Part shown: one piece after another, positions 22,176 to 50,167 of the stretch
Position numbering within the stretch: the first letter of the stretch is position 1
Layout of the letters: each line of letters begins with the position of its first letter
Assembly: GCA_003551705.1 (NCBI GenBank)
Contig: PUNJ01000020.1
Coordinates: 17,128-81,127, forward strand
Source: Chloroflexota bacterium
Lineage (GTDB): Bacteria; Chloroflexota; Dehalococcoidia; UBA2247; RBG-13-53-26
Length of the DNA: 64,000 bases
Direction: 5' to 3'
The notes under the pieces: model-generated
Seen by the model: the letters and a program-made list of their open reading frames with translations, nothing else
Databases searched by the model: none
What the model was told of the DNA's origin: nothing
Position numbers and translations under genes: made by a program

Positions 22176-22190
22176 AGAAGGAGTAATCGC

Positions 22191-22601
22191 ATGGACTCAA
22201 AGAACGTCAAGATATTAATGGCCAAACCCGGTCTGGAAGGGCACTGGCGCGGTCTGATTGCAGTCAGCAGCGCCTTCAGGGATGCAGGTTTCGAGGTCAT
22301 TTACGGCGGCAGTATGCGGCCAGCAGAGATCGCCACGACAGCCGCCCAAGAAGATGTGGATATTGTCGGACTGAGCATACTCTGTTCAAACTATATGCCA
22401 CTCACTTCCCAGACCATTGAACAACTCAAGGCCCACGGCAAGGGTGACGTCATGGTCCTGCTTGGCGGTATAATCTACCCCGACGACTTCACTGAACTTC
22501 AAAAGATGGGAGTAAGCGGCATCTTCATACCGGGAACACCACTCGAAGACATCGTCAAATTCGTAAATGACAGGATACCTGAACTCAAGAAAGTTGCATA
22601 G
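22191..22601 (+). CDS. B12-binding small subunit of split acyl-CoA mutase; copy 1
   Basis: 136 aa. KILMAKPGLEGHWRG cobalamin-binding loop (ExHxxG variant of DxHxxG). Rossmann-like remainder. GGAG SD. Confidence 0.85.
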   Translation: MDSKNVKILMAKPGLEGHWRGLIAVSSAFRDAGFEVIYGGSMRPAEIATTAAQEDVDIVGLSILCSNYMPLTSQTIEQLKAHGKGDVMVLLGGIIYPDDFTELQKMGVSGIFIPGTPLEDIVKFVNDRIPELKKVA

Positions 22602-22653
22602 CCCTTGGGCAATAAGTAGGTCCAGAGTTTGGTAACTCTCAAGGAGCGTGAAT

Positions 22654-27077: not shown

Positions 27078-27276
27078 TAAGGAAGGTAAATAACCAAATA
27101 CGCTGTACAGCTCCCTGGTCAGAGGTTGACCATTCTACCGAGGAGGTAGAATAATGGTTTAGTTTTACCAGGTCACTCACGCCGGAGACGTGAGCCTGGC
27201 CCGATCAAGGTGAATCAGGGCATGTGACCTAGTGGCCAGCAGTGAAGAAGAGGAGCATATCTTAAAGGAGGTCAAT

Positions 27277-28641: not shown

Positions 28642-28656
28642 ATTGGGAGGTCGAAA

Positions 28657-28872
28657 ATGGGAGATAACCTTTGCGGAGTATGTCAGAAGAAGGAAACAGA
28701 AGCTACATGCAAAGTCTGCGGCGTGGCACTGTGCGCTGAATGTGTCCGTGAAGTCAGCGTAGAAAATCCAGGCCAACGGGTGCTTGGTGTGCTGACCAGT
28801 CCTCTCAAGTCAGGCACGAAGAAACAGAAGGTCTGTGCGACCTGTATGAAGGAAGTCGATTTCGTCGATTAG
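28657..28872 (+). CDS. 4xCxxC zinc-ribbon miniprotein; copy 1
   Basis: 71 aa with CxxC pairs at residues 6/9, 18/21, 26/29, 60/63. GGGAGG SD. Conserved paralogue at 32907..33128 in the same relative position. Confidence 0.65.
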   Translation: MGDNLCGVCQKKETEATCKVCGVALCAECVREVSVENPGQRVLGVLTSPLKSGTKKQKVCATCMKEVDFVD

Positions 28873-28955
28873 GTGCTTCCGCTTGCTGCTGAAAGACTTC
28901 CGTTCGTATGCGTTAACGCTTGGGCTAAGTATCGATAAGTCGGAGGATAAGAGCT

Positions 28956-31445
28956 GTGAAAGATAATAACAGAATTGCTCACGTCGGGTCCCTGGAAGTC
29001 AACATAGGCGACGTAGTTCGCGACCCCAGGGGGCACGAAGACGAAATCGTTGAAATACTGGAGAACGATTTTGTTGAAGGTCGACATAGCAACTTCGGTG
29101 GATGGATTACCCTCCTGCCGGATGCCATTGATCTGGCGGAACTCGATTATTCATACCTTAACAAATACCCGCCTCTCTATTCAGAGAGCGAGAGCACTTG
29201 CCGGGACTGCAGTCTGGGAGATTGCGATCTTAGCCAGCGTGCGGGAAAATGCGGACTCAGCGCCGAATCCTTCCAGGGGAGACTGAGCCTGCGAAAGGCC
29301 TGCCGCGGTTGCATGACTCAAATTACTGCAACCCGTCAGTTGCTTAATTACGCCCTCAAACGCTGGCCGGAGGATACCCCAGTCTCCATGGGCGAGATCC
29401 TTAGCATATCCGATAGTGCCCCAGCTATCACCGTTCTCTCCGGCATCTTGATCAAGACCATAAAGGACCTCAACAGGGCCCAGTCCTATGCGGAGCAGCA
29501 GCTAGCCAGGCTGTTCCAGGCCAGTTTCAACGGGACCGGCACGGCGGTTGAATTCGAGAGCATGGTCTTGCACACCGGCTCGGTACTATTGCTGACCATG
29601 GGCGTAGCAGAGATGCTGAAGATCTCCTGCTACGGATTCATCAGTGCAGCAAACGAGGAGTTGGAAGTCATCGACCAGTTCCCAGCCCCCAGCGTGAAAG
29701 GCGGATGGGCTTCCGTCGACAACAGCAAACCGTCGATTGCATTCGAAGGAGATGACTTTCTTCCCGCCTGGTGCGCACTGGACTACATGAAACAGCAAGA
29801 CCTGCTCGGTCAGATAGAGATCTGCGGCCTGGGCTCAGCCGGCGATGACATCGCCAGGTTCCATGACCAGTGCCGCGTTCTGGGTCCAGCCGTGAGAGCC
29901 ACCAAGGCCATCCGAAACGGTGTATTCAACGTAGTCGTCCTCAGCCCGGGCTGTACTCCGCAAGATCTGCTCGGTGAGGTCGAGCGAGCCGGCAGCAAGG
30001 CCATATGGGTTGGCAGCAACGGCATCGGCAATTTGCGCGACAGAACGGACGAGACCGTCGATAGCATAGTTGCCGCGCTGGCTGCCGGAGAGAAGGCCGT
30101 CTGGGTCCGCGATGTGGAAAAGGCAGGCGAGGTGGCTGTCAAGGCTGCACAGACCATCGCCAAATCCAAGTCCAGCCTGACGTCCGAAGATGACGCTGTC
30201 AAGGCTGCCGCAAGCCACGACAAGAACTGTGACCTCTGTACCCTGGTCTGTCCTCTTAATCTTCCTGTTGCCAAGGCCGTAAAGGGACTGGAAACAGGCG
30301 ATTGGACAGCGATGCTTGAAGTGGAGAAAGCGTGCAACTTCTGCGGCAAGTGTGAAGATGCGTGCCCCAGCAAGTTGGAATTACGTGACATCATTGTCGC
30401 CGCCGAAAGAAGACAGGCTGACAAAGACAAATTCGTTATGCGACCGGGTCGCGGTCCAATTTCGATCACCGAATTGCTGCAGTCAGCGTTTGCCGTGGGT
30501 TGGGGCAGCATTCCAGCCATGGTTACCCTATTCGGGTGCGGTGACGCTCCGCAGGAAGAGATAGCCTGGATGGCTGATGAATTGTTGAAAGGTGGATGCA
30601 TGGTCTTCACTGCAGGGTGTGGCGCCTCCGATATAGCGCACTCCTACAGCGAAATGAAGAAGAAATACGTATTCGAGGAATACGCAGCCACCTGCGCAGC
30701 CAGAAACCTGGTGAACTGCGGCAGTTGCTCGGCCATGTGTCATGCACTGCCCATGTACCTGATGTTGAGGCCCTCCGGAGGGATTCCGCTGTACGGCGGA
30801 ATTCCACCCCTGGGTGATTCCATCAATCTTGGCGGCGCCCAGTCATTAATAATATGGGGCTCCATGTCCGACCGCATGTACGCCATGGCAGCGGCCTGGG
30901 CACGACTCGGTTCCACCGTTATCGTGGGTCCCTCATCATCGCTCAAGTGGCCTCGCTCCCTGGTGGGCAACAGGTATGATCGCAGCCGCTGGTGGGTACA
31001 TCACGGTGAGACGGCAAAGAAGCGCGAAACTGAGCCCGTCCCCGAACACCTCATCATGCCGGTTGAGACAAAAGAGGAAGCGCTGACCATGCTGGCGCGG
31101 TCGGTCCTGACCGTGAAGGACTATCGTGAAAGCCGCGCCACGCACCTGGAAGTCTTGATTGATTACTATGACCGCTTCTATAATGAGTTGCCGGCTGACT
31201 GGCCGTTGCTGGTAAGGTCTGACTTCGAACTGCCACCCCGCTACAGAAGATACATGGTCAGATTGCTGGGCGAGGAATATGGTTGGGAAACCGAAGGAAT
31301 GCGGATCAAGCAGGCCAAGCACCGGGACGGCAAGCTCATGACACTGTCAGAGTTTGCGGCCAATTACGGCATGGAGCAAGGCATCTACAGTACCCGGCTG
31401 AAGAGCCAGTTGCCCCTACGCCTCAGAGACAAGGTAGAGGAATAG
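28956..31445 (+). CDS. cdhA: CO dehydrogenase catalytic subunit-like protein, archaeal CdhA type with ferredoxin-like insertion; copy 1
   Basis: 829 aa. N-terminal CxxCxxxxC...C Fe-S motif. Inserted 2x[4Fe-4S] ferredoxin segment (NCDLCTLVCP / CNFCGKCEDACP) as in archaeal alpha subunits. C-terminal Cys cluster (GCG..., NCGSC). Sits in a cdhC/cooC context. Confidence 0.6.
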   Translation: MKDNNRIAHVGSLEVNIGDVVRDPRGHEDEIVEILENDFVEGRHSNFGGWITLLPDAIDLAELDYSYLNKYPPLYSESESTCRDCSLGDCDLSQRAGKCGLSAESFQGRLSLRKACRGCMTQITATRQLLNYALKRWPEDTPVSMGEILSISDSAPAITVLSGILIKTIKDLNRAQSYAEQQLARLFQASFNGTGTAVEFESMVLHTGSVLLLTMGVAEMLKISCYGFISAANEELEVIDQFPAPSVKGGWASVDNSKPSIAFEGDDFLPAWCALDYMKQQDLLGQIEICGLGSAGDDIARFHDQCRVLGPAVRATKAIRNGVFNVVVLSPGCTPQDLLGEVERAGSKAIWVGSNGIGNLRDRTDETVDSIVAALAAGEKAVWVRDVEKAGEVAVKAAQTIAKSKSSLTSEDDAVKAAASHDKNCDLCTLVCPLNLPVAKAVKGLETGDWTAMLEVEKACNFCGKCEDACPSKLELRDIIVAAERRQADKDKFVMRPGRGPISITELLQSAFAVGWGSIPAMVTLFGCGDAPQEEIAWMADELLKGGCMVFTAGCGASDIAHSYSEMKKKYVFEEYAATCAARNLVNCGSCSAMCHALPMYLMLRPSGGIPLYGGIPPLGDSINLGGAQSLIIWGSMSDRMYAMAAAWARLGSTVIVGPSSSLKWPRSLVGNRYDRSRWWVHHGETAKKRETEPVPEHLIMPVETKEEALTMLARSVLTVKDYRESRATHLEVLIDYYDRFYNELPADWPLLVRSDFELPPRYRRYMVRLLGEEYGWETEGMRIKQAKHRDGKLMTLSEFAANYGMEQGIYSTRLKSQLPLRLRDKVEE

Positions 31446-31517
31446 ATTTCGGCCCGATTGTTACGTCGATAAAGTAATCGTTCTGAAACCCGGTTACAAC
31501 GTGGGAAGGGGGAAAGC

Positions 31518-32885
31518 ATGGCTGTACCTGAAGAAGAAGCAGTCTCTAAATTGCCGGCCGGAAGGATCTTTCAGTTACCCACAGATCTGGACCATCTCTG
31601 GGACGGCCTGGACGACATAGGCCTGGGACTGCGATGGCTCAGCGAGGTCAAGAAAGCCGATATGCACCTTGAGTTGGGGGGGCCCAAATGGGACTACAAG
31701 ATGTTCTCCGTCTTCTACATTGAAGAGGATCCTGAGAAGGTCCCGGATGGCCAGGTCAAGCTCATAGGGCCGGATATCCCAGAAGTCAAGCCGGGAACTT
31801 CCTTGCCGGGGGGATTCACCATCAGGATCTACGGCAAAGAACTTACACAAGCCCATCAGGGTTATGTTTCACGCCAGATTGGCACCGCCCTTCAGGGTCT
31901 TGAAGGTTTCATGCTCTTCGGCTCACCTGACAGTCTCTGGATAAGGATAAACAAAGACGTGGCCGACAGGCTCACCTTTGCAAAGATATCGCAATTTTGT
32001 TATGCGACTGCCAAGACCCTGGTACCTCAAGTTGACGCCGTGTCCTTCTTCTGGGTAATAGGAGATCCGGAGGTAGGCGGTGTAGAGATGGTCAACCCCG
32101 TTTTCGAATGGGCTTCCGAGAAGTTTAAAGTCATCAGTGCCAAGGAACTGTACGACGACGAAGATGTAGACATGTTCTACGGCTGCACCATCTGCAAGTC
32201 ACTGGCGCCTAACCACGCATGCGTGCTGACACCCAGCGCCCTGCCTTACTGCGGTATCATCGGCTATGACTCTGCCAAGGTAACAGCCGAAATGGACCCC
32301 GAGGGCTACGTATTCCCCATCCCCAAAGGCGAATGTCTCGACCCAGAAGCTGGTCACTATACCGGCGTGGACGAGGCTATCTGGGAGAAATGCAATCATT
32401 TGGTGAACCGCGTCCACATCTACAGCAGTATCAAGTACCCGACCACGAATTGCGGGTGCTTCGAAGCCGCTTCCTTCTATATTCCTGACGTGGACGGCAT
32501 CGGTCTCGCCATGAGACGTTATACGAAAATGACCCCGCTTGGCATCAAATTCTCAACCCTGGCTGGCACCATTTCCGGGGGTGCCCAGAACCATGGGTTC
32601 AAGGGGCTTTCCATAGCAGGTATGTCCAGCCCGAACTTTCTCAGAGGAGATGGTGGCTGGAACCGGGTTGTCTGGATGCCGTCCGACCTCAAGGAGGAAA
32701 TAGCGGATGTCATACCTGAGGAGCTTTACGACAAGTTAGTCACGGATGAAGAGACTGTGGATGCCGCTGAGCTCAAGCAATTACTTATTGAACGCGGACA
32801 CCCTATAACGGAGGTGTTCTGGAAGAACGGGGAACCGCAACCGTTGCAGATACCTCTTCCAGGCGAGGACTGGCCCGAGGAATAA
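31518..32885 (+). CDS. cdhC: acetyl-CoA synthase (A-cluster) subunit, CdhC type; copy 2
   Basis: Same C-x2-C-x8-C-x9-C ... CGC (TNCGCFEA) arrangement. Paralogue of 27277..28641. GGGGG SD. Confidence 0.8.
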   Translation: MAVPEEEAVSKLPAGRIFQLPTDLDHLWDGLDDIGLGLRWLSEVKKADMHLELGGPKWDYKMFSVFYIEEDPEKVPDGQVKLIGPDIPEVKPGTSLPGGFTIRIYGKELTQAHQGYVSRQIGTALQGLEGFMLFGSPDSLWIRINKDVADRLTFAKISQFCYATAKTLVPQVDAVSFFWVIGDPEVGGVEMVNPVFEWASEKFKVISAKELYDDEDVDMFYGCTICKSLAPNHACVLTPSALPYCGIIGYDSAKVTAEMDPEGYVFPIPKGECLDPEAGHYTGVDEAIWEKCNHLVNRVHIYSSIKYPTTNCGCFEAASFYIPDVDGIGLAMRRYTKMTPLGIKFSTLAGTISGGAQNHGFKGLSIAGMSSPNFLRGDGGWNRVVWMPSDLKEEIADVIPEELYDKLVTDEETVDAAELKQLLIERGHPITEVFWKNGEPQPLQIPLPGEDWPEE

Positions 32886-32906
32886 TTCCTGATCGGGGGT
32901 TGAATC

Positions 32907-33128
32907 ATGTCGGAGAATCTTTGTGGAGTTTGCCAGAAGATGGCCGCTCAATGGACCTGCCAGGAGTGCAAAGTGGCACTATGCGAGCAGTGTGTAAAGG
33001 AAGTGCGCATAGAGTCCACCAGACCAGGTCAGAGGATGATGGGAAGGGTTACGAGCCCCATGAAGTCAGGGGTGAAGAAGATCAAGGTCTGTGACAAGTG
33101 CTTCAGGGAAAAGGAGTTTCTGGGATAG
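32907..33128 (+). CDS. 4xCxxC zinc-ribbon miniprotein; copy 2
   Basis: 73 aa. Cys positions conserved with the 28657..28872 miniprotein. Confidence 0.65.
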   Translation: MSENLCGVCQKMAAQWTCQECKVALCEQCVKEVRIESTRPGQRMMGRVTSPMKSGVKKIKVCDKCFREKEFLG

Positions 33129-33141
33129 CAGCCGAGGAGGC

Positions 33142-35628
33142 ATGATGGATGATAACAAGTATGCTCAAGTCGGCCCTCATCGGGTTGACATTGGTGAGGT
33201 AGTCCGCGACCCACGCGGTATTGAGGATATCGTCAAAGAAATCCTTGAAAAGGACTTCGTTGAGAGTCGCTACGCTCAGTTTGGAGCCCACCTTAATATT
33301 CTGCCTGACGCTGCTGACATTGCCGACTGGGACCATACACTCCTGTCCAGGTATGAACCACTGTATATGCTTTCGGCGCATATTTGCAGGGATTGCACTT
33401 CAGGTCCCTGTAACCTGAATAGTGCCAGCGGGGTGTGCGGACTGGAAGGAGATGTCCTCAAGGCAAAGCTAAGCCTCCGAAAGGCTTGTCGCGGCTGCCT
33501 GGTGCAGATGATCACCAGCCGTGATATTGTCAACTACTCACTGAAGATCTTTGGTCAGGACCACCCCTGCAGCATGGGCGAGTTGCTCACCATGTCCGAT
33601 CACTGCCCGCCCATAGGCACACTCAGCGGTATTCATGTTAAGTCGCTTAACGACTTGGACCGTGTGCTCGCCTATGCCGAATCACAGTTGAGCAAGCTCT
33701 TCCAGGCAAGCTTCACCGGCACGGGAACGGTCAACGATTTCGAGAGCATGGTCATGCACGCCGGCTCCGTCCTGCTGCTGGCCATGGGCGTGGCAGAAAT
33801 GGCCAAGGTCTCTTGTTTCGGGTTTGTTTCAGCCGCCAACCACCAGATAGACCAGCTCGACAACTTTCCGCCCGCCACCTCCGCCGTGGGATGGGCCGCT
33901 ATTGAAAAGGACAAACCCGTGGTGGCCTTCGTCGGCGACAGCTTCCTTCCGGCATGGACCGCAATCCAGCATATGCGGGAAAATGAACAGGTAGAAGCAA
34001 TTGAGGTATGCGGAGTAGGACCGGCAGCGGACGATATAATCAGATTTTATGACAAAGGCAGGGTTATCGGTCCCATGACCCGAGCGGCCCGTGCCATACG
34101 GAACGGTGTCTTTAACGTGGTAGTAGCCGGACCGGGCTGCATACCGCAAGACCTGTTCACAGAATCCGAGCGGGCCAACAGCAAGTTCATCTGGACCGGC
34201 CCCAATGGCGTAAGCAAACTCAAGGACAGAACTGACGACTCCGTCGACAAGATGGTAGCTGACTTGCTAAAGGGAGAGTCGGGAATCTGGATCAGGGATG
34301 TTGAGAAAGCCGGTCAAGTCGCCGTTAGGCTGGCAGGTTCGCTTGGTCCCAACAAGAGTGTATTCGCTCTGGACGACCAAGATGCGGCAAGGCTTGCCTC
34401 GAAGTGCTCTGAGAAGTGCGACCTGTGTTTTTACGCCTGCCCCAACAGCTTGCAGGTCCCCAAAGCTGTAAGAGGGATTGCCGGAGGAGATTGGGCAACC
34501 ATGGCCGGGTTGGAGAAGGGTTGTTATTTCTGTGGCAAGTGCGAGGAAGCCTGTCCTGAAAACGTCCAGGTCCGCGATCTTGTGGTCGCCGCTGAAAGGA
34601 AGAAGGCAGAACAAGACAACTCCGTGATGAGAGCAGGCAGAGGACCCCTCCCCCTGACTGAGATCCTCCAGTCCGCCTTCTCCATGGTCTGGGGCAATGC
34701 ACCCGGCATCGTGGTCCTGGCAGGTTGCGGCGACGCCGATCGCGATGAAATCGGCTGGTTGGCCCACGAATTGACCCGTCGCAACTGCATTGTCTTTCTG
34801 GCCGGATGCGGCGCTGCCGAAATCGCCCGCAATTACCAGGACAAGAAGGGCAAGCATATATTCGAGCTCTACACATCCTCCATTGAGCCGAGATCCCTAA
34901 TTAACTGCGGTGGATGCGCAGCGATTTCCCTGGCCAACAACATGTACATGTACGCCAGGGCTGCTGGAGGAATACCGCTATATGGTGGTATCCCAGAGGT
35001 AGGCGAGGGCTCTTTGTACACCACCTTCTCACTCTTGTTATGGGGTTCTCTGCCGGAGAGAATGCATGCTGTTGCAGCAGGCTACGCCAGACTGGGCGTC
35101 AGGGTGGTGATGGGCCCCAACTCGGGCTGGAACTGGGGCAGATATCTGCCAGGTAACCGCTACGATAGAAGCAAATGGTTCGTGTACCACGGCGATGACG
35201 GCCGCAAGCGAGAGACCGAGCCCATACCTGAGCATCTTATTATCCCTGTCGAGACCAAGGAAGAGGCCCTGACCATGATCCCGAGGACGTTCTTCAGCAC
35301 ATCGGAGATGCGGGAGGGCCGCGCCGCCCGCTTGGACTTCTTCTTCGAACTCTACAGGTTGTTCTATGGCGAGCTGCCCGAGGACTGGCAGCTCTTTATA
35401 CGCTCCCATCTTGATATACCGACCAGGCACAGGATCCGCTTGATCAAGCTGCTTGACGAGGAGTTCGGCTGGGAAGGGGCTGGCATAAAACTCAATAAGG
35501 CCAGGAACAGGGACGGCAAGTTGCTGACGCTTTCGGAATTCAATACCAGCTACGGTATGGAGCTGGGCCGGTACCACTGCCGTTTGGAGAGACTGCTGCC
35601 CAAACACCTGCGCAAGAAGGACGGGTAA
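33142..35628 (+). CDS. cdhA: CO dehydrogenase catalytic subunit-like protein, CdhA type; copy 2
   Basis: Paralogue of 28956..31445 with the same N-terminal Cys motif, ferredoxin-like insertion (KCDLCFYACP / CYFCGKCEEACP) and C-terminal Cys cluster. Start at ATG just after GAGGAGG. Confidence 0.6.
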   Translation: MMDDNKYAQVGPHRVDIGEVVRDPRGIEDIVKEILEKDFVESRYAQFGAHLNILPDAADIADWDHTLLSRYEPLYMLSAHICRDCTSGPCNLNSASGVCGLEGDVLKAKLSLRKACRGCLVQMITSRDIVNYSLKIFGQDHPCSMGELLTMSDHCPPIGTLSGIHVKSLNDLDRVLAYAESQLSKLFQASFTGTGTVNDFESMVMHAGSVLLLAMGVAEMAKVSCFGFVSAANHQIDQLDNFPPATSAVGWAAIEKDKPVVAFVGDSFLPAWTAIQHMRENEQVEAIEVCGVGPAADDIIRFYDKGRVIGPMTRAARAIRNGVFNVVVAGPGCIPQDLFTESERANSKFIWTGPNGVSKLKDRTDDSVDKMVADLLKGESGIWIRDVEKAGQVAVRLAGSLGPNKSVFALDDQDAARLASKCSEKCDLCFYACPNSLQVPKAVRGIAGGDWATMAGLEKGCYFCGKCEEACPENVQVRDLVVAAERKKAEQDNSVMRAGRGPLPLTEILQSAFSMVWGNAPGIVVLAGCGDADRDEIGWLAHELTRRNCIVFLAGCGAAEIARNYQDKKGKHIFELYTSSIEPRSLINCGGCAAISLANNMYMYARAAGGIPLYGGIPEVGEGSLYTTFSLLLWGSLPERMHAVAAGYARLGVRVVMGPNSGWNWGRYLPGNRYDRSKWFVYHGDDGRKRETEPIPEHLIIPVETKEEALTMIPRTFFSTSEMREGRAARLDFFFELYRLFYGELPEDWQLFIRSHLDIPTRHRIRLIKLLDEEFGWEGAGIKLNKARNRDGKLLTLSEFNTSYGMELGRYHCRLERLLPKHLRKKDG

Positions 35629-35631
35629 GGC

Positions 35632-36126
35632 CTAGTCGTCGTCATCTCGAGGTTCAGCCTTGACGAGATCAAGTGCCTCGAAGGGACACCTGTCGGCACA
35701 GACGCCGCAGAGATCCAGACTCTTGTCCGACCGCTTGCAACTTGGGGCATTGATTACGTGCAGGCTGCCGTTGATGACCTGGAGCACCTCAGGTACCGTT
35801 TCCCGCTTGGAGAGCCGGCCTCCTATAGTGACCGTTGTCAACGCCCTGCCGCATGCCAGCACACAGTCCCCACAGCCTGTACACCTTGTCCGGTCTATGA
35901 CATGATCAGTGCCCGGTATCCTCTCGCCCTCTCCCAGAAACCCCTTCAAGGTCTTCAAGGCATCGGCTTGTTCCGGCTCCTGAAGAGGAGGACAATCATT
36001 CAATGTCCGGTCCCGGCTGATGAGATCGAAGGCAAAGGAATAGCAGGTTGGGCAGCCGCATAGCTTGCAATTGGTCCGCGGCAGGAAGCGGTAGATGTGA
36101 AGCGGTTGGACTTCTTTCCTACTCAT
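35632..36126 (-). CDS. poly-Fe-S protein (N-terminal CxxxCxCxxC plus 2x[4Fe-4S] ferredoxin domain)
   Basis: Motifs CTGCGDCVLACG and CGVCADRCP. Start set at the ATG that overlaps the upstream stop (ATGA coupling) with a G-rich SD. Last gene of the minus-strand operon. Confidence 0.55.
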   Translation of the reverse strand: MSRKEVQPLHIYRFLPRTNCKLCGCPTCYSFAFDLISRDRTLNDCPPLQEPEQADALKTLKGFLGEGERIPGTDHVIDRTRCTGCGDCVLACGRALTTVTIGGRLSKRETVPEVLQVINGSLHVINAPSCKRSDKSLDLCGVCADRCPFEALDLVKAEPRDDDD

Positions 36127-36517
36127 GATCCGCCCCAGGCAGGATTTCGTTAAGGGGAGTCGGTGCTTTCGTCGACACTGCTGCAACGACGCCTATTAAG
36201 CTCAGACCGGCCGCAGTCATGTGCTCCACGTCCGCCAACAGGTAACCCGTGTAAAGGCTGGCCGGCATGACACCTGTGCCTGCCTCAATCGTCTTCTCTC
36301 CTCTTGCTTCAACAACGATATGGGAAACCTCGCTTCGCAACGAAATTGCTCCCCCATCGGCTAAGCCCATCTTCTTCATGTCTGCCGGCGATAATCTGAC
36401 AATGGCAGCCAGTTTCTGGTACGCATCACCCCAGCCATGCTTCTGCCTGGCAATATCTAAGTGGATGTCGCTATAAGTGAGTATCGTCAAGGGCAGTCCG
36501 TCCATTTCCGGGGTCAT
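36119..36517 (-). CDS. FwdD/molybdopterin-dinucleotide-binding-domain-like small subunit
   Basis: 132 aa, size and position typical of FwdD-type C-terminal molybdopterin-binding domains split from FwdB. GGAGGG SD. Stop/start overlaps on both sides. Confidence 0.4.
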   Translation of the reverse strand: MTPEMDGLPLTILTYSDIHLDIARQKHGWGDAYQKLAAIVRLSPADMKKMGLADGGAISLRSEVSHIVVEARGEKTIEAGTGVMPASLYTGYLLADVEHMTAAGLSLIGVVAAVSTKAPTPLNEILPGADHE

Positions 36518-37743
36518 CCCAGTCCCTCCAGAAGTCGCTGCAACACCACGGTCTCGGCTGGATACGGTCCTGCGCTGAAGCGTGTTAGGTCTGCCTTCTC
36601 GCCGTCCATACGCAGTACCGCGCCCTCGCTTTCGAGGCCGGCTACAGCAGTAGTAATCCGAATAGCCGCTCGCTCAGAGGTAAGAGTAGTGAAACTATCT
36701 ACGCAGATTATGTCCGCTTGTGAGAGCCTGGACATCAACGCCTGCGGAAATACCGCATAGGGGTCAGAGCCCACACACAGAAGGACGTCGGGAACAGCCC
36801 CTTTCACCTGCTCAGTGAAAGAGCACTCAGGTCCATGACGAACGGTTCCAGCAAAACTCACACTCCCCACAGAGCCGGTCTCCTCAAACAGCTCCCTCCC
36901 CAGGCCCATCAAATTCGGTTCCGATAACATGGGTATCACCGCAACCTTGGCCCCCTCGACAGAATTGGCCTTTGCCACCATCTCGCAAAAGACGTTGGTG
37001 TCTCCTCCCAGTGAGCGGCCCAAACCGTCACCGCAGAAAACCACAGCAAATCCCGCCTTCATGAGCAGTTCCCGGAACTGCCGGGCCTCCGGTAAGTCAT
37101 CGCCACGCTCGAGCACAGCCTCCAGAAAGGCCAGGTCGCCACCGGGCTTTAGCTTGAACTTCGGCCGGCACAGGGAGGTGAACTCGCTCTCCCGGATATC
37201 CACACTGCTGAGGACGACGTTCTTCGGTTGCCACCCTGAGGGATCGTAATCGCTGTAGCAATAATACGTGAATTTGGAAAGATGCCGCGGATGGGTGTGG
37301 GCCGGATTTGACCCCCAGTACACCAGCAGACCGGCGCTATCCTTTATGTCAAGCAGAGAACAGGAAGGGAGATTCTTCTCAAGGATGGACTTCAAAATCT
37401 CTCCAAGTCCCAGCGAGAGGCTGCTGTCCAATACGGCTCCCAACCGGCGGGCTATTTCGATGGCGGTCTTCTGTGCCTCGATGGTGGAACTCCCAAGACC
37501 GTAGATAAGCGGATTCCTTGCGTATCTAAGCAGGTGTGTTGCTTCCGTTACGGCTTCCTCCAGGGAAACGTCCCGCTCTCCCACACGCGTGCGGCCCCTG
37601 CGTGCGGGGTCTCGGCTCGAGGCAAAGAGGGCAGCTCCCCTGGCACAGATATTCTCTATAAGCTTGAGAGTACTCCCGGCCTCTATCCGGATATCATCGC
37701 AGAAACAACTGCAACCGCTGCACGTCAAGGTTATCTTGGACAT
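36514..37743 (-). CDS. FwdB-like molybdopterin oxidoreductase subunit (formylmethanofuran dehydrogenase subunit B family)
   Basis: 409 aa. N-terminal CSGCSCFCDD, i.e. the CxxCxxxCDD Fe-S motif characteristic of FwdB/FmdB. Molybdopterin-oxidoreductase-like remainder. Confidence 0.55.
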   Translation of the reverse strand: MSKITLTCSGCSCFCDDIRIEAGSTLKLIENICARGAALFASSRDPARRGRTRVGERDVSLEEAVTEATHLLRYARNPLIYGLGSSTIEAQKTAIEIARRLGAVLDSSLSLGLGEILKSILEKNLPSCSLLDIKDSAGLLVYWGSNPAHTHPRHLSKFTYYCYSDYDPSGWQPKNVVLSSVDIRESEFTSLCRPKFKLKPGGDLAFLEAVLERGDDLPEARQFRELLMKAGFAVVFCGDGLGRSLGGDTNVFCEMVAKANSVEGAKVAVIPMLSEPNLMGLGRELFEETGSVGSVSFAGTVRHGPECSFTEQVKGAVPDVLLCVGSDPYAVFPQALMSRLSQADIICVDSFTTLTSERAAIRITTAVAGLESEGAVLRMDGEKADLTRFSAGPYPAETVVLQRLLEGLG

Positions 37744-37749
37744 ATTCGT

Positions 37750-39975
37750 CTAGTAGGAAGAGCGGGCCATGGCAGCCTCTTCCAGGATGGCTGTCGGCAA
37801 CTCCTCTGCACCAATCAGGTAAATCCTGCCCTTGCCAACTCCGGCTATACGGCGCATCAGTTCAGGGTCGGCGGAGCGCTGGTTGATGCAGATGCAGGAT
37901 ATGGTGATGCCTCTACGGGCTATCAGCGCCGCCTGTCTGAGCGCATATCTTTGAGGCGATGGATGCGGCGCTGTCGCGTCACCGTCCGATATCAGGATGA
38001 TATGCTGCTTGGCCCTGCCTTTCGGGTGACGTGCCAGGAGATCGCCTGCTTTGAGCAAGCCGTAGCCGATATTCGTAAAGGCATTTTCATGCAAGTCCAG
38101 GTCAAGCACGAGCCGGCTGACGCGATGCGGGCTGGCTGTAAGATCGACCACGATGTCAGCCAGATTTGAGAAGGAGATCACAGCTACACGGTCCTTATAG
38201 GCAGTCGCCGCCAGAGACAAGGCTATAGCGCTTTCCTTAGCAAACCAGAACTTCTCCAACTGGAGCATGGTCCCGGAGAGGTCAAGCACCAGGACGATGT
38301 CCATCCTGGTCCGAATATCCTTTATGTTAACCAGGATATCCTCCCTGGTTATCTCCTGTCTGCGATTACGCATGGCTTCTCTGAGGGTATCACGGAAGGA
38401 GATGTCGCGGTACTTATCGCCGAAGCGGAAGCGCCGCGTCCCAACCACTTTGCCCTCGCCCAGGTTGAGCTTCTTGCCCGCGCCGTGCCTGCCGTAACTA
38501 TAGAGGTAGGCACCTTCCTCCAACCGGGGAGTGAGTTTCTCAAGAAGAAAATTGATACCCCGCTGGCTCAGCATCCAGCCGCTGCTGGTCCTCTCCAAGA
38601 TGTCCTCTTCCTCCAGAAACTCCAGGGTCTTGGACAGGGCCGTCTTCTCCAGGTACTCGCGAATGCGCTCTTTTTCCTTCCTGAACTCCTCCACTTCCAT
38701 AAGTAGTTCGCTGTCAAGGTTGTCCAGCTTGAAGCGCTCCGGATACAGCTCGGGCAGGCGCTCGGATATTTGCTGGTATAGCATGGCCAGTTTGGTGTCG
38801 GGAAAGCGCTTGATTCGCTTCAGAAGCAGATCAAAGGCACCATACTTGAGCGGCTTGCGGAACTTGTCTTCCCGGACTATCTCTTCAACCAGTGAAATAA
38901 CATCGTCCTTGGTAAGCGAGGCTACCTCCACTTTGCCGCCATCAAGACCGGTGACCATGGCAACTATTCCTTCGATAATGCTCTGTCTCTTCCCAGGCAA
39001 GTCGACCTCTGGGGCCAGTTTCAGTCGATGAGGCAGAGACACGACGGCTGCATCCCCGAGCATGCGGTTTTCGTCCTCCAGGCCCAGATGAGGAAGATGT
39101 GCCAGGAGTTCCGCATAACGGACCATGCCCCTGGTACCCACCCCTCGCTCCACTTCAGCATGCCGCCTCGTCTCATTCACGATTGCCACCGCCTTGCCGG
39201 TCAGTGAAGAGTCCAGTGTCAGGCCCGCCTCGGCAATCCGGGACGAGACAATCTTACACTGCTGCTCAGCGTCATCCACATAGCCAAGCCTCATCACGTC
39301 GAAGCTGTCAGTAAGGTCCAGCGGCAACGACTTCAGCGCAGATTCACTGCCCGTAGCAACGACCAGAATATCCAAGTCGATCCGCTGGTCCAGCACACCA
39401 ATGGTCAGGGAGCCGCCCTGGACGGCATACATTACGGCATTGAGGACCCTTTCGGGAATCCTGTCAATGAAATCAATGATCAGGATGCCCCGGTTGGCTT
39501 TGAGCAATTTCCCCGGCAAGAAGGCCATGGTGGAGTGCAACCCCTCACGCAGGGCTACACCAGGGTCCACATCGCCTATCAGGTCTTCTACCATGAGGCC
39601 GGCGCTTCCCTGCACATTGACGATCCTGTCGGCGGCGCAGCGGACGGCACTCTCAAGGACTTCACCGCGGTCCCTTCTCTCCAGGCACCACGGACAAGTG
39701 GGGGCTTCAGGATCACAGTTCATAGGACAACCCTTCACTACCTGTATGTCCGACAAAATGCAGGAAAGATTATTGGCCAGGCTGGTCTTGCCGCTGCCCG
39801 GTGCACCCAGGATCAGCAAATGATGGCTGCTGTAAATGCTGCTGAGCAGCGCCTGTTTCTGGGGTTCTTCCAGCCACAGACCCTGGAATACGTCTTGAGT
39901 CTTATCCGGCTTGTCTCGCAAAGTTGCCAGAATCTCTTCTCGGAGCACAATTCTAGGTTCCTTCGGCGTGTTCAA
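37750..39975 (-). CDS. ChlD-like AAA+ ATPase fused to a C-terminal von Willebrand A (MIDAS) domain, with Cys4 insertion
   Basis: Walker A GAPGSGKTS. ChlI/BchI-family collinearity (KANRGILIIDFIDR...VVATGSES). Cys4 insert CPMNCDPEAPTCPWC. C-terminal vWA DLSGTM...ISDG. The annotated start is TTG; a GTG at 39948 with an AAGGAA SD is an alternative. Confidence 0.7.
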   Translation of the reverse strand: MNTPKEPRIVLREEILATLRDKPDKTQDVFQGLWLEEPQKQALLSSIYSSHHLLILGAPGSGKTSLANNLSCILSDIQVVKGCPMNCDPEAPTCPWCLERRDRGEVLESAVRCAADRIVNVQGSAGLMVEDLIGDVDPGVALREGLHSTMAFLPGKLLKANRGILIIDFIDRIPERVLNAVMYAVQGGSLTIGVLDQRIDLDILVVATGSESALKSLPLDLTDSFDVMRLGYVDDAEQQCKIVSSRIAEAGLTLDSSLTGKAVAIVNETRRHAEVERGVGTRGMVRYAELLAHLPHLGLEDENRMLGDAAVVSLPHRLKLAPEVDLPGKRQSIIEGIVAMVTGLDGGKVEVASLTKDDVISLVEEIVREDKFRKPLKYGAFDLLLKRIKRFPDTKLAMLYQQISERLPELYPERFKLDNLDSELLMEVEEFRKEKERIREYLEKTALSKTLEFLEEEDILERTSSGWMLSQRGINFLLEKLTPRLEEGAYLYSYGRHGAGKKLNLGEGKVVGTRRFRFGDKYRDISFRDTLREAMRNRRQEITREDILVNIKDIRTRMDIVLVLDLSGTMLQLEKFWFAKESAIALSLAATAYKDRVAVISFSNLADIVVDLTASPHRVSRLVLDLDLHENAFTNIGYGLLKAGDLLARHPKGRAKQHIILISDGDATAPHPSPQRYALRQAALIARRGITISCICINQRSADPELMRRIAGVGKGRIYLIGAEELPTAILEEAAMARSSY

Positions 39976-40717
39976 TCAGCAGTTTGCACAGTTCGTCGAC
40001 AGCCACCACTGCAGGGGAGTCTTCGGGCACCCCGGTAACAGGCTTGCCCTCGATGTCCAGAAGCGCCACGGCAGGATCGAAGGGAATGAAGACAGCGATT
40101 TCAAGGCCGTTCTCACTGGCCATTTGCCCTGCTCCTGCTTTGACCTCCGAAGTCACACGGTTCATGACTGGAATAATGGCGCCGAACTCCACGGATAGCT
40201 CCTCAGCAAGCTCCTGTATCCTCTTGGCAGTCAATATCCCGTTCTTGGTCGGGTCCGCGACCACTATCATCACATCCACATCCCGCGTGGTGCGTCTGCT
40301 CAGATGCTCGAGTCCGCCGTGACAGTCTATGACGGTGAAGTCGTAGCCTTGCGACCTGCTGTCGATTACCTGTCTGATCACATGATTCACGGCACAATAG
40401 CAGCCCTCGCCCTCGGGACGGCCCATGATGATGACATCGAAATCGGGGAACTCGTGGACCGACTCATGGATGGACAGCTTGAGGTATTCCTCTTTGGCAG
40501 CCGCCACCTTGCTGCGGGCGGGAGCGTTGATTATATCTTCGCGGGCCTGGCCCACGTTCTTGTCCACGCTCACACCGAGGGCTTCGGGCAGGTTGGAATC
40601 AGGGTCGGCGTCTATGGCCAGCACCGTCCCCTGTTTTGCCAGCCTCTTGATAAGCATGCTGGACAGGAAGGTCTTGCCTACCCCACCCTTTCCGGAAATG
40701 GCGATCGCAATACCCAT
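39953..40717 (-). CDS. cooC: CooC/AcsF-family Ni-insertion ATPase (MinD/ParA fold)
   Basis: Deviant Walker A GKGGVGKT. Metal-binding CxC (EGCYCAV) characteristic of CooC. 254 aa. GAGGAG SD. Confidence 0.8.
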   Translation of the reverse strand: MGIAIAISGKGGVGKTFLSSMLIKRLAKQGTVLAIDADPDSNLPEALGVSVDKNVGQAREDIINAPARSKVAAAKEEYLKLSIHESVHEFPDFDVIIMGRPEGEGCYCAVNHVIRQVIDSRSQGYDFTVIDCHGGLEHLSRRTTRDVDVMIVVADPTKNGILTAKRIQELAEELSVEFGAIIPVMNRVTSEVKAGAGQMASENGLEIAVFIPFDPAVALLDIEGKPVTGVPEDSPAVVAVDELCKLLIEHAEGT

Positions 40718-40719
40718 AA

Positions 40720-41751
40720 CTACTCCTCAAGTACGTTGGATACAAGCTCTTCAATGAGTTTGAATGGATCGTCGTAGAATTTCGATTCAGGCGATGGTTT
40801 GATACGGCTACCAAGAGACGATGATGCAACTTTTCTAACGTCGGCTACGCTGGCCTCCAGCCTGTTCTCCAGTCTGGCCATGGCCTGGACCTTTTCGTAG
40901 AGGGACAGGGCAGCCCTGACACTGGCGGGCTGGTCCATTTCCTTTCTCCAAGGGTCCTCTCTGGTACTCCGGACCAGGGTCACTACCGAGTCCAAGACTT
41001 TATCGCTTACCTGAACACCATCTATCTTGAGGCCGTGCTTCAAAATGATGGACTTCTCCATGTCGGTGGTCTCCGGATAGCCCATCTTGACCACGTCAAA
41101 GCGGTCCAGCAGTACATCAGAAAGCTCTTCGACGCCGGCCCGCTCTCTGGGGTTCATGGTGGCTATCATCATGAAGCCGGCGGGATAGTCCACGTCGTAC
41201 GGGCCTATGGTGGCGATGCCTTCTTCCAGCACTTGAAGCAGAGCATTCTGAAGCTTTTCAGTTACCCTGTTAAGTTCGTCGAAGAAGACTATGCCCCTGT
41301 TACCCTTCAGCAGCTTTCCGGGAAGGAATACCCGGTAGTCCTGGGGTCCATACTTGAAGGCCTGGGTGGGATCTATGTCGCCGAGCAGGTCTTCAGCCGT
41401 GAGGTCGGGGGAACCCTGCAAGCGCACGAAACGCTGCTCCCCCGAGATGGTAGCCGGTGTCAGTTCCTCACCGGCCGCCGCTTTGGCCTTGCAGCGAGGG
41501 CAGACCGGCGACTGTGGATCGCAATGATAGGGGCAGTCAGCCACAACCGTTATCGGCGGCATAGCAGCAGCTATGTGTTTAGCCATGGTCGTCTTGCCGA
41601 CGCCGGGAGGGCCTTCGATGAGAGTATGGTGGCCGGCGAGCAACGAAGCCAGGATCTTGTCCTTGGCATCCTTCTGGCCGACAATGACATCCAGCATGTC
41701 ACCGCCCTCAGCAGCATACTTCAGGATCGTGTCTTTGAGTCCCTCGATCAT
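40720..41751 (-). CDS. ChlI/BchI-like AAA+ ATPase with Cys4 zinc-ribbon insertion
   Basis: Walker A GPPGVGKTT. ChlI-family collinearity (KGNRGIVFFDELNR, MIATMNP, LLDRFD). Insert CPYHCDPQSPVCPRC. GGAGGG SD. Confidence 0.75.
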   Translation of the reverse strand: MIEGLKDTILKYAAEGGDMLDVIVGQKDAKDKILASLLAGHHTLIEGPPGVGKTTMAKHIAAAMPPITVVADCPYHCDPQSPVCPRCKAKAAAGEELTPATISGEQRFVRLQGSPDLTAEDLLGDIDPTQAFKYGPQDYRVFLPGKLLKGNRGIVFFDELNRVTEKLQNALLQVLEEGIATIGPYDVDYPAGFMMIATMNPRERAGVEELSDVLLDRFDVVKMGYPETTDMEKSIILKHGLKIDGVQVSDKVLDSVVTLVRSTREDPWRKEMDQPASVRAALSLYEKVQAMARLENRLEASVADVRKVASSSLGSRIKPSPESKFYDDPFKLIEELVSNVLEE

Positions 41752-48750: not shown

Positions 48751-48765
48751 TTCGATCCTCCTTTA

Positions 48766-49986: not shown

Positions 49987-50167
49987 AGTGATACCTCCTT
50001 TCAAAGTCGGACTCACCGCTTAAGCAGATGGATGCATGCAGGGGGAAAGGAGGTATAGGTGCCCCCACCTTTGCACCGCCGCGGTACGGCAGAACCCTTT
50101 GGAGTAAATAATATATCAAATGAGTCTTGTTGAGAAGCCTTCGGCAAACTTGTGTGCCCGTCACTCA

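What the first reader, a model, noticed from the sequence alone, without database searches (positions are those of the whole stretch)
37750..41751. Unusual Cys4 insertion (C-P-x-x-C-D-P-x-x-P-x-C-P-x-C) directly after Walker A in both ChlI/ChlD-like AAA+ proteins
The 343-aa protein carries CPYHCDPQSPVCPRC and the 741-aa protein carries CPMNCDPEAPTCPWC at the equivalent position, replacing the Cys-free loop found in bona fide ChlI/BchI. Conservation of this insertion in two diverged paralogues suggests a functional zinc-ribbon or metal-handling element peculiar to this subfamily, for example a metal relay or a partner-docking site.
Basis: seen in the sequence. Interest (0 to 1): 0.55.

Follow-up and report, generated by a model that had tools for sequence, protein, structure and literature searches.

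The report
Cys4 metal knuckle in ChlI-like ATPases
Two related ATP-driven motor proteins in this gene cluster each carry a conserved four-cysteine loop that most likely holds a structural zinc ion. The loop is an old, widespread feature of the whole magnesium/cobalt-chelatase motor family, not a speciality of these two proteins.

Summary
CPYHCDPQSPVCPRC lies at residues 73-87 of the 343-aa protein and CPMNCDPEAPTCPWC at residues 83-97 of the 741-aa protein. The two motifs align without gaps and are conserved in 119/120 and 116/116 database relatives.

Two parts of the interpretation fail:
- **Not an insertion.** The loop aligns gap-free with the known "i1" insertion of solved ChlI/BchI, where D/S occupy the first two Cys positions.
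- **Not peculiar to this subfamily.** The same C-x3-C-x(5-9)-C-x2-C signature occurs in both I and D subunits of ordinary chelatase motors next to CobN. It also occurs in a named Ammonifex "putative cobaltochelatase" and in Asgard and DPANN AAA+/VWA pairs.

Best explanation: a structural Zn(Cys)4 knuckle that stiffens i1 on the partner-docking face of the ring.
- In two high-confidence AlphaFold models the first Cys pair sits in a loop after a strand and the second at a helix N-terminus.
- Relatives show Cys-to-His or Cys-to-Asp swaps, or delete the whole module.
- The motif survives in the ATPase-dead D-like paralogue.

The more interesting result is the context. A ChlI-like/CooC/ChlD-like trio is embedded in divergent CdhA/CdhC and FwdB/D-like clusters and has no CobN.

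The parts
40720..41751 (-). ChlI-like AAA+ ATPase, 343 aa. Catalytically complete: Walker A GPPGVGKT, Walker B DE, Arg finger in LLDRFD.
   Evidence: Pfam AAA_3 67.8, Mg_chelatase 64.2 and AAA_5 64.2 bits. TIGR02030 scores only 83.5 bits against a cutoff of 467. AF2 pLDDT 92.
41437..41559 (-). i1 insertion module of the 343-aa protein (residues 65-105): strand, Cys knuckle, Cys-capped helix, strand.
   Evidence: AF2 model: E67-70, coil 71-84, H85-92, E99-102, pLDDT 90-93. It corresponds to i1 of ChlI/BchI.
41491..41535 (-). Cys4 motif CPYHCDPQSPVCPRC (C73, C77, C84, C87). These are the only four Cys in the protein.
   Evidence: Conserved in 119/120 and 63/63 relatives.
39953..40717 (-). CooC-type P-loop metallochaperone (254 aa) between the I-like and D-like genes. 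It has the deviant Walker A GKGGVGKT and a C-x-C motif (GCYC, nt 40394-40402).
   Evidence: Pfam CbiA/ParA family. Motifs read from sequence. It immediately follows the ChlI-like gene in 43/44 related loci.
37750..39975 (-). ChlD-like protein (741 aa as ORF, 732 aa in the database): degenerate AAA+ module, helical middle, disordered linker (485-523) and a C-terminal VWA domain with MIDAS DLSGT.
   Evidence: Walker B is D-F (nt 39469-39486), the Arg finger is lost in LTDSFD (nt 39298-39315), and MIDAS lies at nt 38269-38283.
39685..39729 (-). Cys4 motif CPMNCDPEAPTCPWC (C83, C87, C94, C97) in the ChlD-like protein.
   Evidence: 116/116 relatives keep it, with an invariant CPWC. The predicted topology matches the 343-aa protein: E77-80, coil, H95-102, E109-112.
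36514..37743 (-). FwdB-like protein (409 aa), same operon. It lacks the Cys-His metal-ligand pair of formylmethanofuran dehydrogenase subunit B.
   Evidence: TIGR03129 268.5 bits, below the cutoff of 327.8. The alignment to 8rja_B shows SVCHG replaced by SLGLG.
36119..36517 (-). FwdD-like molybdopterin-dinucleotide-binding-domain protein (132 aa).
35632..36186 (-). Fe-S protein (PF04060 plus a 4Fe-4S ferredoxin domain). Last gene of the operon.
27232..35628 (+). Two tandem CdhC-like/CdhA-like pairs (469 + 829 aa, 455 + 845 aa) that converge on the operon. They are the likely client enzymes.
   Evidence: CdhA845 scores 478 bits on TIGR00314 against a cutoff of 781. Cdh genes co-occur in 16/22 long related loci.

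Best explanation
The four cysteines form a structural tetrahedral metal site, most likely Zn(Cys)4. It is built from two knuckles, C-P-x-x-C in a loop and C-P-x-C capping a helix. The site rigidifies the i1 insertion that all ChlI/BchI/ChlD-type AAA+ proteins carry between the Walker A helix and strand beta2.

In solved ChlI rings, i1 sits with the H2 and PS1 hairpins on the insert-bearing face and touches the neighbouring subunit. A metal-stapled i1 therefore serves ring assembly and partner docking, not catalysis or metal delivery. The Cys4 form is the common, probably ancestral state of this clade. The Mg-chelatase I subunits of phototrophs have lost the ligands but kept the loop (DPFNSDP).

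In this window the site is present in both halves of a motor/adaptor pair. One half is an active ChlI-like ATPase. The other is an ATPase-dead ChlD-like protein with a VWA/MIDAS domain. By analogy with the ChlI5-ChlD ring and with NorQ/NorD, and together with the interposed CooC, the pair probably matures or activates the neighbouring divergent CdhA/CdhC and/or FwdB/D-like metalloenzyme.

Shown here: the motif, its conservation, its homology to i1, its distribution, and the synteny. Inferred: metal identity, structural role, and client enzyme.
For: - **Homology to i1.** The loop aligns gap-free with solved cyanobacterial ChlI and, with one one-residue gap, with BchI. i1 lies after the Walker A helix. 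It is folded in ATP-bound subunits, contacts helices alpha6-alpha7 of the neighbour, and has been proposed to bind ChlD/ChlH (PMC10653834).
- **Models.** The loop is confidently predicted (pLDDT 90-93 and 87-89) with the same topology in both proteins: strand, coil with C1/C2, C3-P-x-C4 at a helix N-terminus, strand.
- **All-or-none pattern.** Among 35 archaeal and other relatives, 26 have all four Cys, 9 have none (8 delete the whole module, 1 replaces it), and 0 are partial.
- **Ligand-type substitutions.** The Bacillota family has C-C-C-H (CAYNCDPAAPHCPVH). Another family has C-D-C-C.
- **Kept in the dead paralogue.** The motif is retained in 116/116 ChlD-like proteins whose Walker B Glu and Arg finger are gone. 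The ChlI-like set keeps DE in 119/120 and DRF in 120/120.
- **Independent of client.** It is present next to CobN, in DPANN and Asgard AAA/VWA pairs, and in the Cdh/Fwd clusters here.
- **System level.** ChlI-like is followed by CooC in 43/44 loci, ChlD-like is present in 22/25, and Fwd or Cdh genes in 20/22.
- **Structural neighbours.** They include BchI, ChlI, MoxR and NorQ-NorD metal-insertion complexes (PMC13036017 abstract). The I5D ring model comes from PMC13297055.
Against: - No coordinates were available, so Cys-Cys distances in the models were not measured.
- AlphaFold does not model metals, and sequence cannot distinguish Zn from a rubredoxin-type Fe(Cys)4 site.
- No solved structure of a Cys4-bearing family member was found by sequence search.
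- Natural deletion of the whole module in some DPANN relatives shows it is dispensable for the basic ATPase. This fits a structural or docking role but does not prove one.
- The client enzyme is inferred from gene order only. Some related loci have only ChlI-like plus CooC (L135, L137), or lack Cdh (L001).
Confidence: 0.6

Rival explanations
1. The four Cys bind iron, either as a rubredoxin-type Fe(Cys)4 centre or a small Fe-S cluster. This would give the motor a redox-sensing or electron-transfer element suited to its strictly anaerobic, Fe-S-rich client enzymes.
For: The second knuckle, C-P-x-C, is also the rubredoxin knuckle (own knowledge of the rubredoxin family). The operon is surrounded by Fe-S proteins. 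Sequence alone cannot separate Zn from Fe sites.
Against: The motif is equally conserved in CobN-type chelatase motors and DPANN AAA/VWA pairs with no redox context. The spacing C-x3-C-x6-C-x2-C does not match ferredoxin or radical-SAM cluster motifs (own knowledge). The Cys-to-His and Cys-to-Asp variants and the whole-module deletions fit a structural staple better than a redox cofactor.
Confidence: 0.17
2. The Cys4 loops are a metal-handling relay that transiently binds Ni, or another catalytic metal, and passes it between CooC, the VWA MIDAS site and the client enzyme.
For: A Ni chaperone gene with a C-x-C motif sits between the two Cys4-bearing genes in 43/44 loci. AAA+/VWA pairs such as NorQ/NorD drive metal insertion.
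Against: The same motif occurs in relatives that handle other cofactors or have no CooC. It is kept in an ATPase-dead subunit. Some relatives delete it wholesale. Four-thiolate sites buried in two knuckles are typically inert structural sites (own knowledge). In the known systems the MIDAS/VWA domain or the large subunit holds the transferred metal, not the AAA+ inserts.
Confidence: 0.08
3. The cysteines are a thiol/disulfide redox switch regulating ATPase activity, as thioredoxin regulates plant CHLI.
For: C-x3-C and C-x2-C pairs could in principle form disulfides. Plant CHLI is thioredoxin-regulated (own knowledge, not tested here).
Against: The hosts are strict anaerobes or archaea with reducing cytoplasm. 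All four Cys are kept or lost together, and Cys-to-His/Asp substitutions occur. Both features are typical of metal ligands, not of disulfide pairs.
Confidence: 0.03

Closest known systems
i1 insertion of Mg-chelatase ChlI/BchI (PDB 8osf, 6l8d, 1g8p)
   Same: Same position (after the Walker A helix, before beta2). Same length as in the two ChlI structures; BchI needs a single one-residue gap. Shared residues include V-V-x-x-x-P-[FY]-x-x-D-P. The overall AAA+ clade-7 fold is shared.
   Different: Solved ChlI has D and S at the first two Cys positions and no Cys at the last two. BchI keeps only C1. The window proteins score far below the BchI/ChlI equivalog cutoff (83.5 against 467 bits) and have no ChlH/CobN partner.
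ChlI/ChlD-like motors of CobN-type class I chelatases ('putative cobaltochelatase', TIGR02442-like)
   Same: They carry the same Cys4 signature, often the identical ADCPYHCDP, in both I and D subunits. They have the same I (active) plus D (AAA-VWA) architecture.
   Different: They are adjacent to CobN and cobalamin genes. They are only about 30-37% identical to the window protein. The Walker A is of the G-x-K-G-T-[GA]-K-S type, and C2-C3 spacing is usually one to three residues longer.
MoxR AAA+/VWA metallo-chaperone pairs (NorQ/NorD, CbbQ/CbbO, CoxD/CoxE)
   Same: An AAA+ hexamer plus a VWA/MIDAS adaptor encoded beside a metalloenzyme. These are Foldseek neighbours (9qh*, 6l1q). NorQD drives metal insertion (PMC13036017).
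   Different: Those motors lack the i1 module and its Cys4 site. Their VWA partner has no dead AAA+ domain. No CooC is interposed.
CooC/AcsF Ni-insertion ATPases of CODH/ACS
   Same: The middle gene has the CooC hallmarks and sits in a Cdh cluster, as cooC does in the cdh operons of methanogens (own knowledge).
   Different: Here it is flanked by, and apparently co-translated with, a ChlI/ChlD-like pair. I found no paper describing this arrangement.
Treble-clef / zinc-knuckle Cys4 modules
   Same: Two short knuckles, the second at the N-terminus of a helix, each Cys followed by Pro.
   Different: It is embedded as an insertion in a P-loop domain instead of forming a free-standing finger. Metal binding is untested.

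Membership tests
BchI/ChlI Mg-chelatase subunit I (TIGR02030) | Scores above the curated equivalog cutoff (466.95 bits) | tested here: not met
   83.5 bits, and only profile positions 5-198 are matched. A CobN-linked Cys4-bearing ChlI-like protein (L089) scores 442 bits for comparison.
BchI/ChlI Mg-chelatase subunit I (TIGR02030) | Works with a ChlH/BchH/CobN-type large subunit | tested here: not met
   No ORF of 1000 aa or more in the window. tblastn with two CobN proteins finds nothing in the window or in any of the 60+ subfamily loci.
BchI/ChlI Mg-chelatase subunit I (TIGR02030) | AAA+ clade-7 core with an i1 insertion after the Walker A helix, and intact Walker A/B and Arg finger | tested here: met
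   Gap-free alignment through i1 to ChlI 8osf/6l8d; 1g8p aligns with one one-residue gap. Foldseek hits to 1g8p and 8osf at E about 1e-13. DE and DRF motifs are present.
BchD/ChlD (TIGR02031) and fused cobaltochelatase subunit (TIGR02442) | Scores above the curated cutoffs (499.55 and 779.45 bits) | tested here: not met
   The 741-aa protein scores 41.2 and 111.8 bits.
BchD/ChlD (TIGR02031) and fused cobaltochelatase subunit (TIGR02442) | Architecture: ChlI-like AAA+ module, flexible linker, C-terminal integrin-I/VWA domain with MIDAS | tested here: met
   Pfam Mg_chelatase plus VWA. AF2 shows an AAA module at 1-345, a disordered segment at 485-523 and VWA at 556-741. MIDAS DLSGT at 565-569.
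MoxR-type AAA+/VWA chaperone systems | MoxR-like AAA+ domain (PF07726 AAA_3) above the gathering score | tested here: met
   67.8 bits against 27. The 2r44 MoxR protein is the top Foldseek hit.
MoxR-type AAA+/VWA chaperone systems | Co-encoded VWA partner and a client metalloenzyme in the same cluster | tested here: met
   ChlD-like present in 22/25 loci and Fwd or Cdh genes in 20/22. Actual chaperoning of a client is not testable here.
Structural Zn(Cys)4 knuckle / treble-clef module | Four ligands in two knuckles, the second at a helix N-terminus, with ligands conserved together | tested here: met
   (topology). (26 with four Cys, 9 with none, 0 partial). (His/Asp substitutions).
Structural Zn(Cys)4 knuckle / treble-clef module | Stoichiometric zinc bound by the four thiolates | not testable with these tools
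   No model coordinates and no metal analysis were available.
CooC Ni-insertion ATPase (middle gene) | Deviant Walker A GKGGxGK[ST] and a metal-binding C-x-C motif | tested here: met
   GKGGVGKT at residues 9-16 and GCYC at 105-108. Only general CbiA/ParA/MinD family hits were found in the libraries.

The most novel reading that the evidence does not exclude
The ChlI-like/CooC/ChlD-like trio may be an undescribed three-component, ATP-driven maturation or activation machine. It would be dedicated to the divergent bacterial Cdh-type CODH/ACS, and to the catalytic-Cys-less FwdB/D-like proteins encoded with it. In mechanism it would be an I5D-type ring whose VWA/MIDAS arm, together with CooC, loads or remodels a Ni-Fe-S (or other) centre. 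The Cys4-stapled i1 modules would form the docking platform. This would extend the chelatase-motor principle from tetrapyrroles to protein-bound metal clusters of the Wood-Ljungdahl enzymes.
Probability: 0.4. Interest if true: 0.6.

Novelty: new member of a known kind. Interest (0 to 1): 0.32.

Why it matters
For the Cys4 loop itself the result is mostly corrective. It is a family-wide and probably ancestral feature of chelatase-type AAA+ motors. It marks the i1 insertion as a discrete module that is metal-stapled in most lineages, ligand-less in phototroph ChlI/BchI, and deleted in some DPANN archaea. That gives experimenters a simple handle (Cys-to-Ser mutants, or module deletion) to test what i1 does, which is still open for magnesium chelatase.

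The context matters more. A chelatase-like I/D motor with an interposed CooC is tightly and repeatedly linked to poorly understood bacterial Cdh-type CODH/ACS and Fwd-like genes. The hosts are Chloroflexota, Desulfobacterota and related uncultured anaerobes. This points to an unstudied cofactor-assembly route in a globally abundant subsurface metabolism.

Tried and rejected
- **Insertion relative to ChlI/BchI:** rejected by gap-free phmmer alignments to ChlI and a near-gap-free one to BchI.
- **Subfamily-specific motif:** rejected by the representative search, the genome and metagenome scans, and the CobN contexts. L152-L170 were retrieved through the peptide pattern ADCPYHCD, so their 100% motif presence is selected for. 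They count only as proof of existence in classical I/D pairs.
- **Measuring Cys-Cys distances:** the structure tool returns no coordinates and none were in /data, so geometry rests on secondary structure and pLDDT only.
- **Literature on the motif:** six motif strings gave no hit. Searches combining ChlI/BchI with zinc or cysteine motif, and CooC/CODH with MoxR/VWA/chelatase, found nothing describing either the motif or the gene trio.
- **Contexts that were uninformative:** P0238 lies on a 2.5-kb contig. P0195 of Ammonifex is a lone fused I/D gene with no CobN within 8 kb.
- **Cluster names:** a second cluster-name look-up yielded almost no organism names.
- **Bona fide BchI of Chlorobi, Heliobacteria or Chloroflexus:** not sampled. 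The statement that phototroph Mg-chelatase I subunits lack Cys4 rests on three solved structures only.
- **Tetrapyrrole chelatase function for the window pair:** considered and rejected because no CobN/ChlH is present.

Full report
**1. What is there**

The minus strand between 41751 and 35632 carries a tightly packed six-gene operon:
- a 343-aa AAA+ protein (40720-41751);
- a 254-aa P-loop protein (39953-40717);
- a 741-aa AAA+/VWA protein (37750-39975; 732 aa in the database);
- a 409-aa FwdB-like protein, a 132-aa FwdD-like protein and a 184-aa Fe-S protein.

Two CdhC-like/CdhA-like pairs (27232-35628, plus strand) converge on it.

The 343-aa protein hits the MoxR (AAA_3), Mg_chelatase and AAA_5 Pfam models about equally (64-68 bits). 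It reaches only 83.5 bits on the BchI/ChlI equivalog model, whose cutoff is 467. The 741-aa protein has a ChlI-like N-terminal module and a C-terminal VWA domain. The nearest database sequences come from Chloroflexota/Dehalococcoidia, Syntrophales and Desulfatiglans MAGs.

**2. The observation**

CPYHCDPQSPVCPRC occupies residues 73-87 of the 343-aa protein (nt 41491-41535). CPMNCDPEAPTCPWC occupies residues 83-97 of the 741-aa protein (nt 39685-39729). The two proteins align at 32% identity over 315 residues, with the four Cys in register and no gap.

The four Cys are the only ones in the 343-aa protein. The chance that four randomly placed residues fall within 15 positions is 2.5e-4.

Conservation is near total:
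- 119/120 relatives at 67% identity or more;
- 63/63 ChlI-like and 34/35 ChlD-like genes in syntenic loci, almost all metagenomic;
- 116/116 ChlD-like database relatives, with an invariant CPWC.

**3. It is not an insertion**

phmmer aligns the loop to the solved ChlI subunits without a gap; R. capsulatus BchI needs a single one-residue gap. Nostoc and Synechocystis ChlI read VVANDPFNSDPSDP where the window protein reads VVADCPYHCDPQSP. BchI reads VEGCPVSSPNVEM and keeps only the first Cys.

The cryo-EM paper on Nostoc ChlI calls this segment insertion i1. It is a relatively large insert immediately after the Walker A helix and is specific to ChlI-like proteins. It sits with the H2 (i2) and PS1 (i3) hairpins in the upper region of the ring. 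It is folded in ATP-bound subunits and flexible in ADP-bound ones, and it contacts helices alpha6-alpha7 of the neighbouring subunit. It has been proposed to interact with ChlD/ChlH (PMC10653834).

The difference is that the ligands are present here and absent in the solved phototroph proteins.

**4. It is not peculiar to this subfamily**

An exhaustive HMMER search of 1.84 billion cluster representatives gave 9254 hits, of which only 43 had E below 1e-30, so the immediate subfamily is compact. Among the best 150 representatives, about 25 are classical ChlI/ChlD-like proteins. They have Walker A G-x-K-G-T-[GA]-K-S and score 320-690 bits on TIGR02030/TIGR02442. They carry C-[PR]-[FY]-x-C-D-P-x(4-8)-C-x2-C.

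Specific cases:
- One is Ammonifex degensii WP_015739867.1, named "putative cobaltochelatase" by NCBI.
- In locus L089 a TonB receptor gene is followed by ChlD-like (Cys4), ChlI-like (GCPFSCDPSDKENLCPFC; 442 bits on TIGR02030) and a 1180-aa CobN.
- In L090 an archaeal CobN is followed by a fused I/D protein with Cys4, beside CbiG and a tetrapyrrole methylase.
- In L152 a CobN precedes an I/D pair, both with ADCPYHCDP or GCPYHCDP. L152-L170 were retrieved through that very peptide, so they show existence, not frequency.

A scan of GTDB species genomes found 40-60% identical relatives in Asgard (Borrarchaeum), Woesearchaeota/Nanoarchaeota and other MAGs. Each is followed by, or fused to, a VWA protein, and none has Cdh, Fwd or CooC genes nearby. 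Of these, 26 of 35 carry Cys4.

**5. What the Cys4 element most likely is**

Both AlphaFold models are confident through the loop (pLDDT 90-93 in the 343-aa model with mean 92; 87-89 in the 741-aa model). Both give the same topology: a short strand, a coil bearing C1 and C2, C3-P-x-C4 starting a helix, then a return strand. A knuckle plus a helix-capping pair is the arrangement of treble-clef and zinc-knuckle sites (own knowledge).

The comparative pattern is that of a metal site on a separable module:
- In the archaeal set, sequences have four Cys (26) or none (9). Eight have i1 deleted cleanly, running from ..LLP to FVRIQGSPD, and one has it replaced. None is partial.
- A Bacillota family has C-C-C-H (CAYNCDPAAPHCPVH).
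- A family of about 450-520 aa has C-x3-D..C-x2-C.

The motif is kept in the D-like paralogue although its Walker B Glu (D-F in 63 relatives) and its Arg finger are gone. The I-like protein keeps DE in 119/120 and DRF in 120/120. The site therefore does not serve ATP hydrolysis. Because it occurs whatever the client, it is unlikely to handle the delivered metal.

I conclude that it is a structural Zn(Cys)4 staple of i1 that supports ring assembly and partner docking (confidence about 0.6). The rivals, in order, are a rubredoxin-type Fe site, then a metal relay, then a disulfide switch. The tools returned no coordinates, so thiolate geometry and metal identity remain untested.

**6. The system around it**

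In 63 related loci (60 non-redundant metagenomic plus three fetched earlier; ChlI-like 60-84% identical), gene order is strongly conserved:
- the ChlI-like gene is immediately followed by the CooC-like gene in 43 of 44 loci with enough downstream sequence;
- a ChlD-like gene is present in 22 of 25;
- FwdB/D-like genes are present in 16 of 22 long loci, and CdhA/CdhC in 16 of 22;
- at least one of Fwd or Cdh is present in 20 of 22.

The same order recurs in a Desulfatiglans MAG and a Deltaproteobacteria MAG. No CobN/ChlH homologue occurs in the window or in any of these loci, so this is not a tetrapyrrole chelatase.

The middle gene has the CooC hallmarks: GKGGVGKT and a GCYC C-x-C motif. The D-like protein has the ChlD architecture: a dead AAA+ module, a helical middle, a disordered linker at 485-523, and a VWA domain with MIDAS DLSGT.

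Two known models guide the inference:
- The current Mg-chelatase model is a ChlI5-ChlD ring. The ChlD middle segment lies in the pore and its MIDAS domain engages ChlH (PMC13297055).
- NorQ/NorD, a Foldseek neighbour, is an AAA+/VWA pair that drives metal insertion (PMC13036017).

By analogy, the window pair plus CooC most plausibly matures or activates the co-encoded metalloenzymes. This is an inference from gene order and architecture only.

The likely clients are themselves unusual. The CdhA-like proteins score well below the CdhA equivalog cutoff (478 against 781). They may belong to the bacteria-only, deeply branching clade-A CODH groups described by Inoue et al. (PMC6344411). I did not test which group. 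The FwdB-like protein lacks the Cys-His pair that aligns with SVCHG of FwdB.

**7. Comparison, novelty, verdict**

The element works like a zinc knuckle and sits in the i1 insertion of the ChlI/BchI/ChlD clade. The proteins are not members of the BchI/ChlI, BchD/ChlD or TIGR02442 equivalog families, because their scores fall far below the cutoffs and they have no CobN partner. They do share the architecture of those families.

I found no paper that mentions the motif or the I/CooC/D trio. The motif is nevertheless abundantly present in database sequences of a well-known family. As a finding about a "peculiar Cys4 insertion" it is largely explained and of modest interest. The conserved association of a chelatase-type motor and CooC with divergent Cdh and Fwd-like genes is the part worth following up.

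Noticed in passing
window 36514-37743 (-): The FwdB-like protein keeps the N-terminal C-x2-C-x3-C cluster motif. It lacks the Cys-His pair that aligns with SVCHG of solved FwdB (here SLGLG). It has no Pfam molybdopterin hit and falls below the TIGR03129 cutoff. It may be a non-catalytic or differently ligated Fwd-like subunit.
   Followed up: partly
window 27232-35628 (+): There are two tandem CdhC-like/CdhA-like pairs. The CdhA-likes score 478 bits against the 781-bit CdhA cutoff. No CdhB/D/E-like genes turned up among the larger ORFs I scanned, and smaller ORFs were not checked. They may belong to the bacteria-only clade-A CODH groups A-3/A-4/A-6 of Inoue et al. 2019, some of which have incomplete C-cluster ligands. 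Ligand positions were not checked.
   Followed up: partly
L032, L035-L039, L043 (DPANN and other archaeal MAG loci), also P0131, P0140, P0149, P0160: Close relatives (40-45% identity) have the whole i1 module, about 35 residues, cleanly deleted. The chain runs from the Walker A helix straight into the FVRIQGSPD strand. These are natural delta-i1 variants.
   Followed up: partly
L048, L050, L057, L061 (Bacillota / Clostridia MAGs): A separate ChlI-like family (Walker A GLRGTGKTT) has the fourth Cys replaced by His (C-x3-C-x6-C-x2-H, e.g. CAYNCDPAAPHCPVH), with an extra His before the third Cys.
   Followed up: no
P0163, P0165, P0171, P0179, P0188, P0194, P0218 (about 450-520 aa): Another related family (Walker A GERGQ[GA]K[ST]) carries G-C-x-I-x-D-D-P-x3-C-x2-C. 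Asp replaces the second Cys. Its function and context were not examined.
   Followed up: no
window 39948-39975 (-): The mechanical ORF for the ChlD-like gene starts at a TTG that overlaps the CooC-like gene by 23 nt. The database version is 732 aa, so the true start is probably 9 codons downstream.
   Followed up: partly
L003 5140-5355: In the Desulfatiglans locus a 71-aa zf-HIT-like protein lies between CdhC and CdhA. Two small unannotated ORFs (153 and 191 aa) precede the ChlI-like gene. They could be further accessory proteins of the cluster.
   Followed up: no
L005 4700-7111 (P0121, 803 aa): The nearest relative outside the subfamily (56% identity) is a single fused AAA+/VWA protein with Cys4. 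It lies near CofD- and nitroreductase-like genes, which is yet another context for the same motor.
   Followed up: no
window 20574-24249, 42902-44833, 47545-50016: The surrounding genes point to acyl-CoA metabolism: two methylmalonyl-CoA mutase large subunits, an acetyl-CoA hydrolase/transferase-GNAT fusion, and two family III CoA transferases. This may hint at the carbon flux that the Cdh-like enzymes serve.
   Followed up: no
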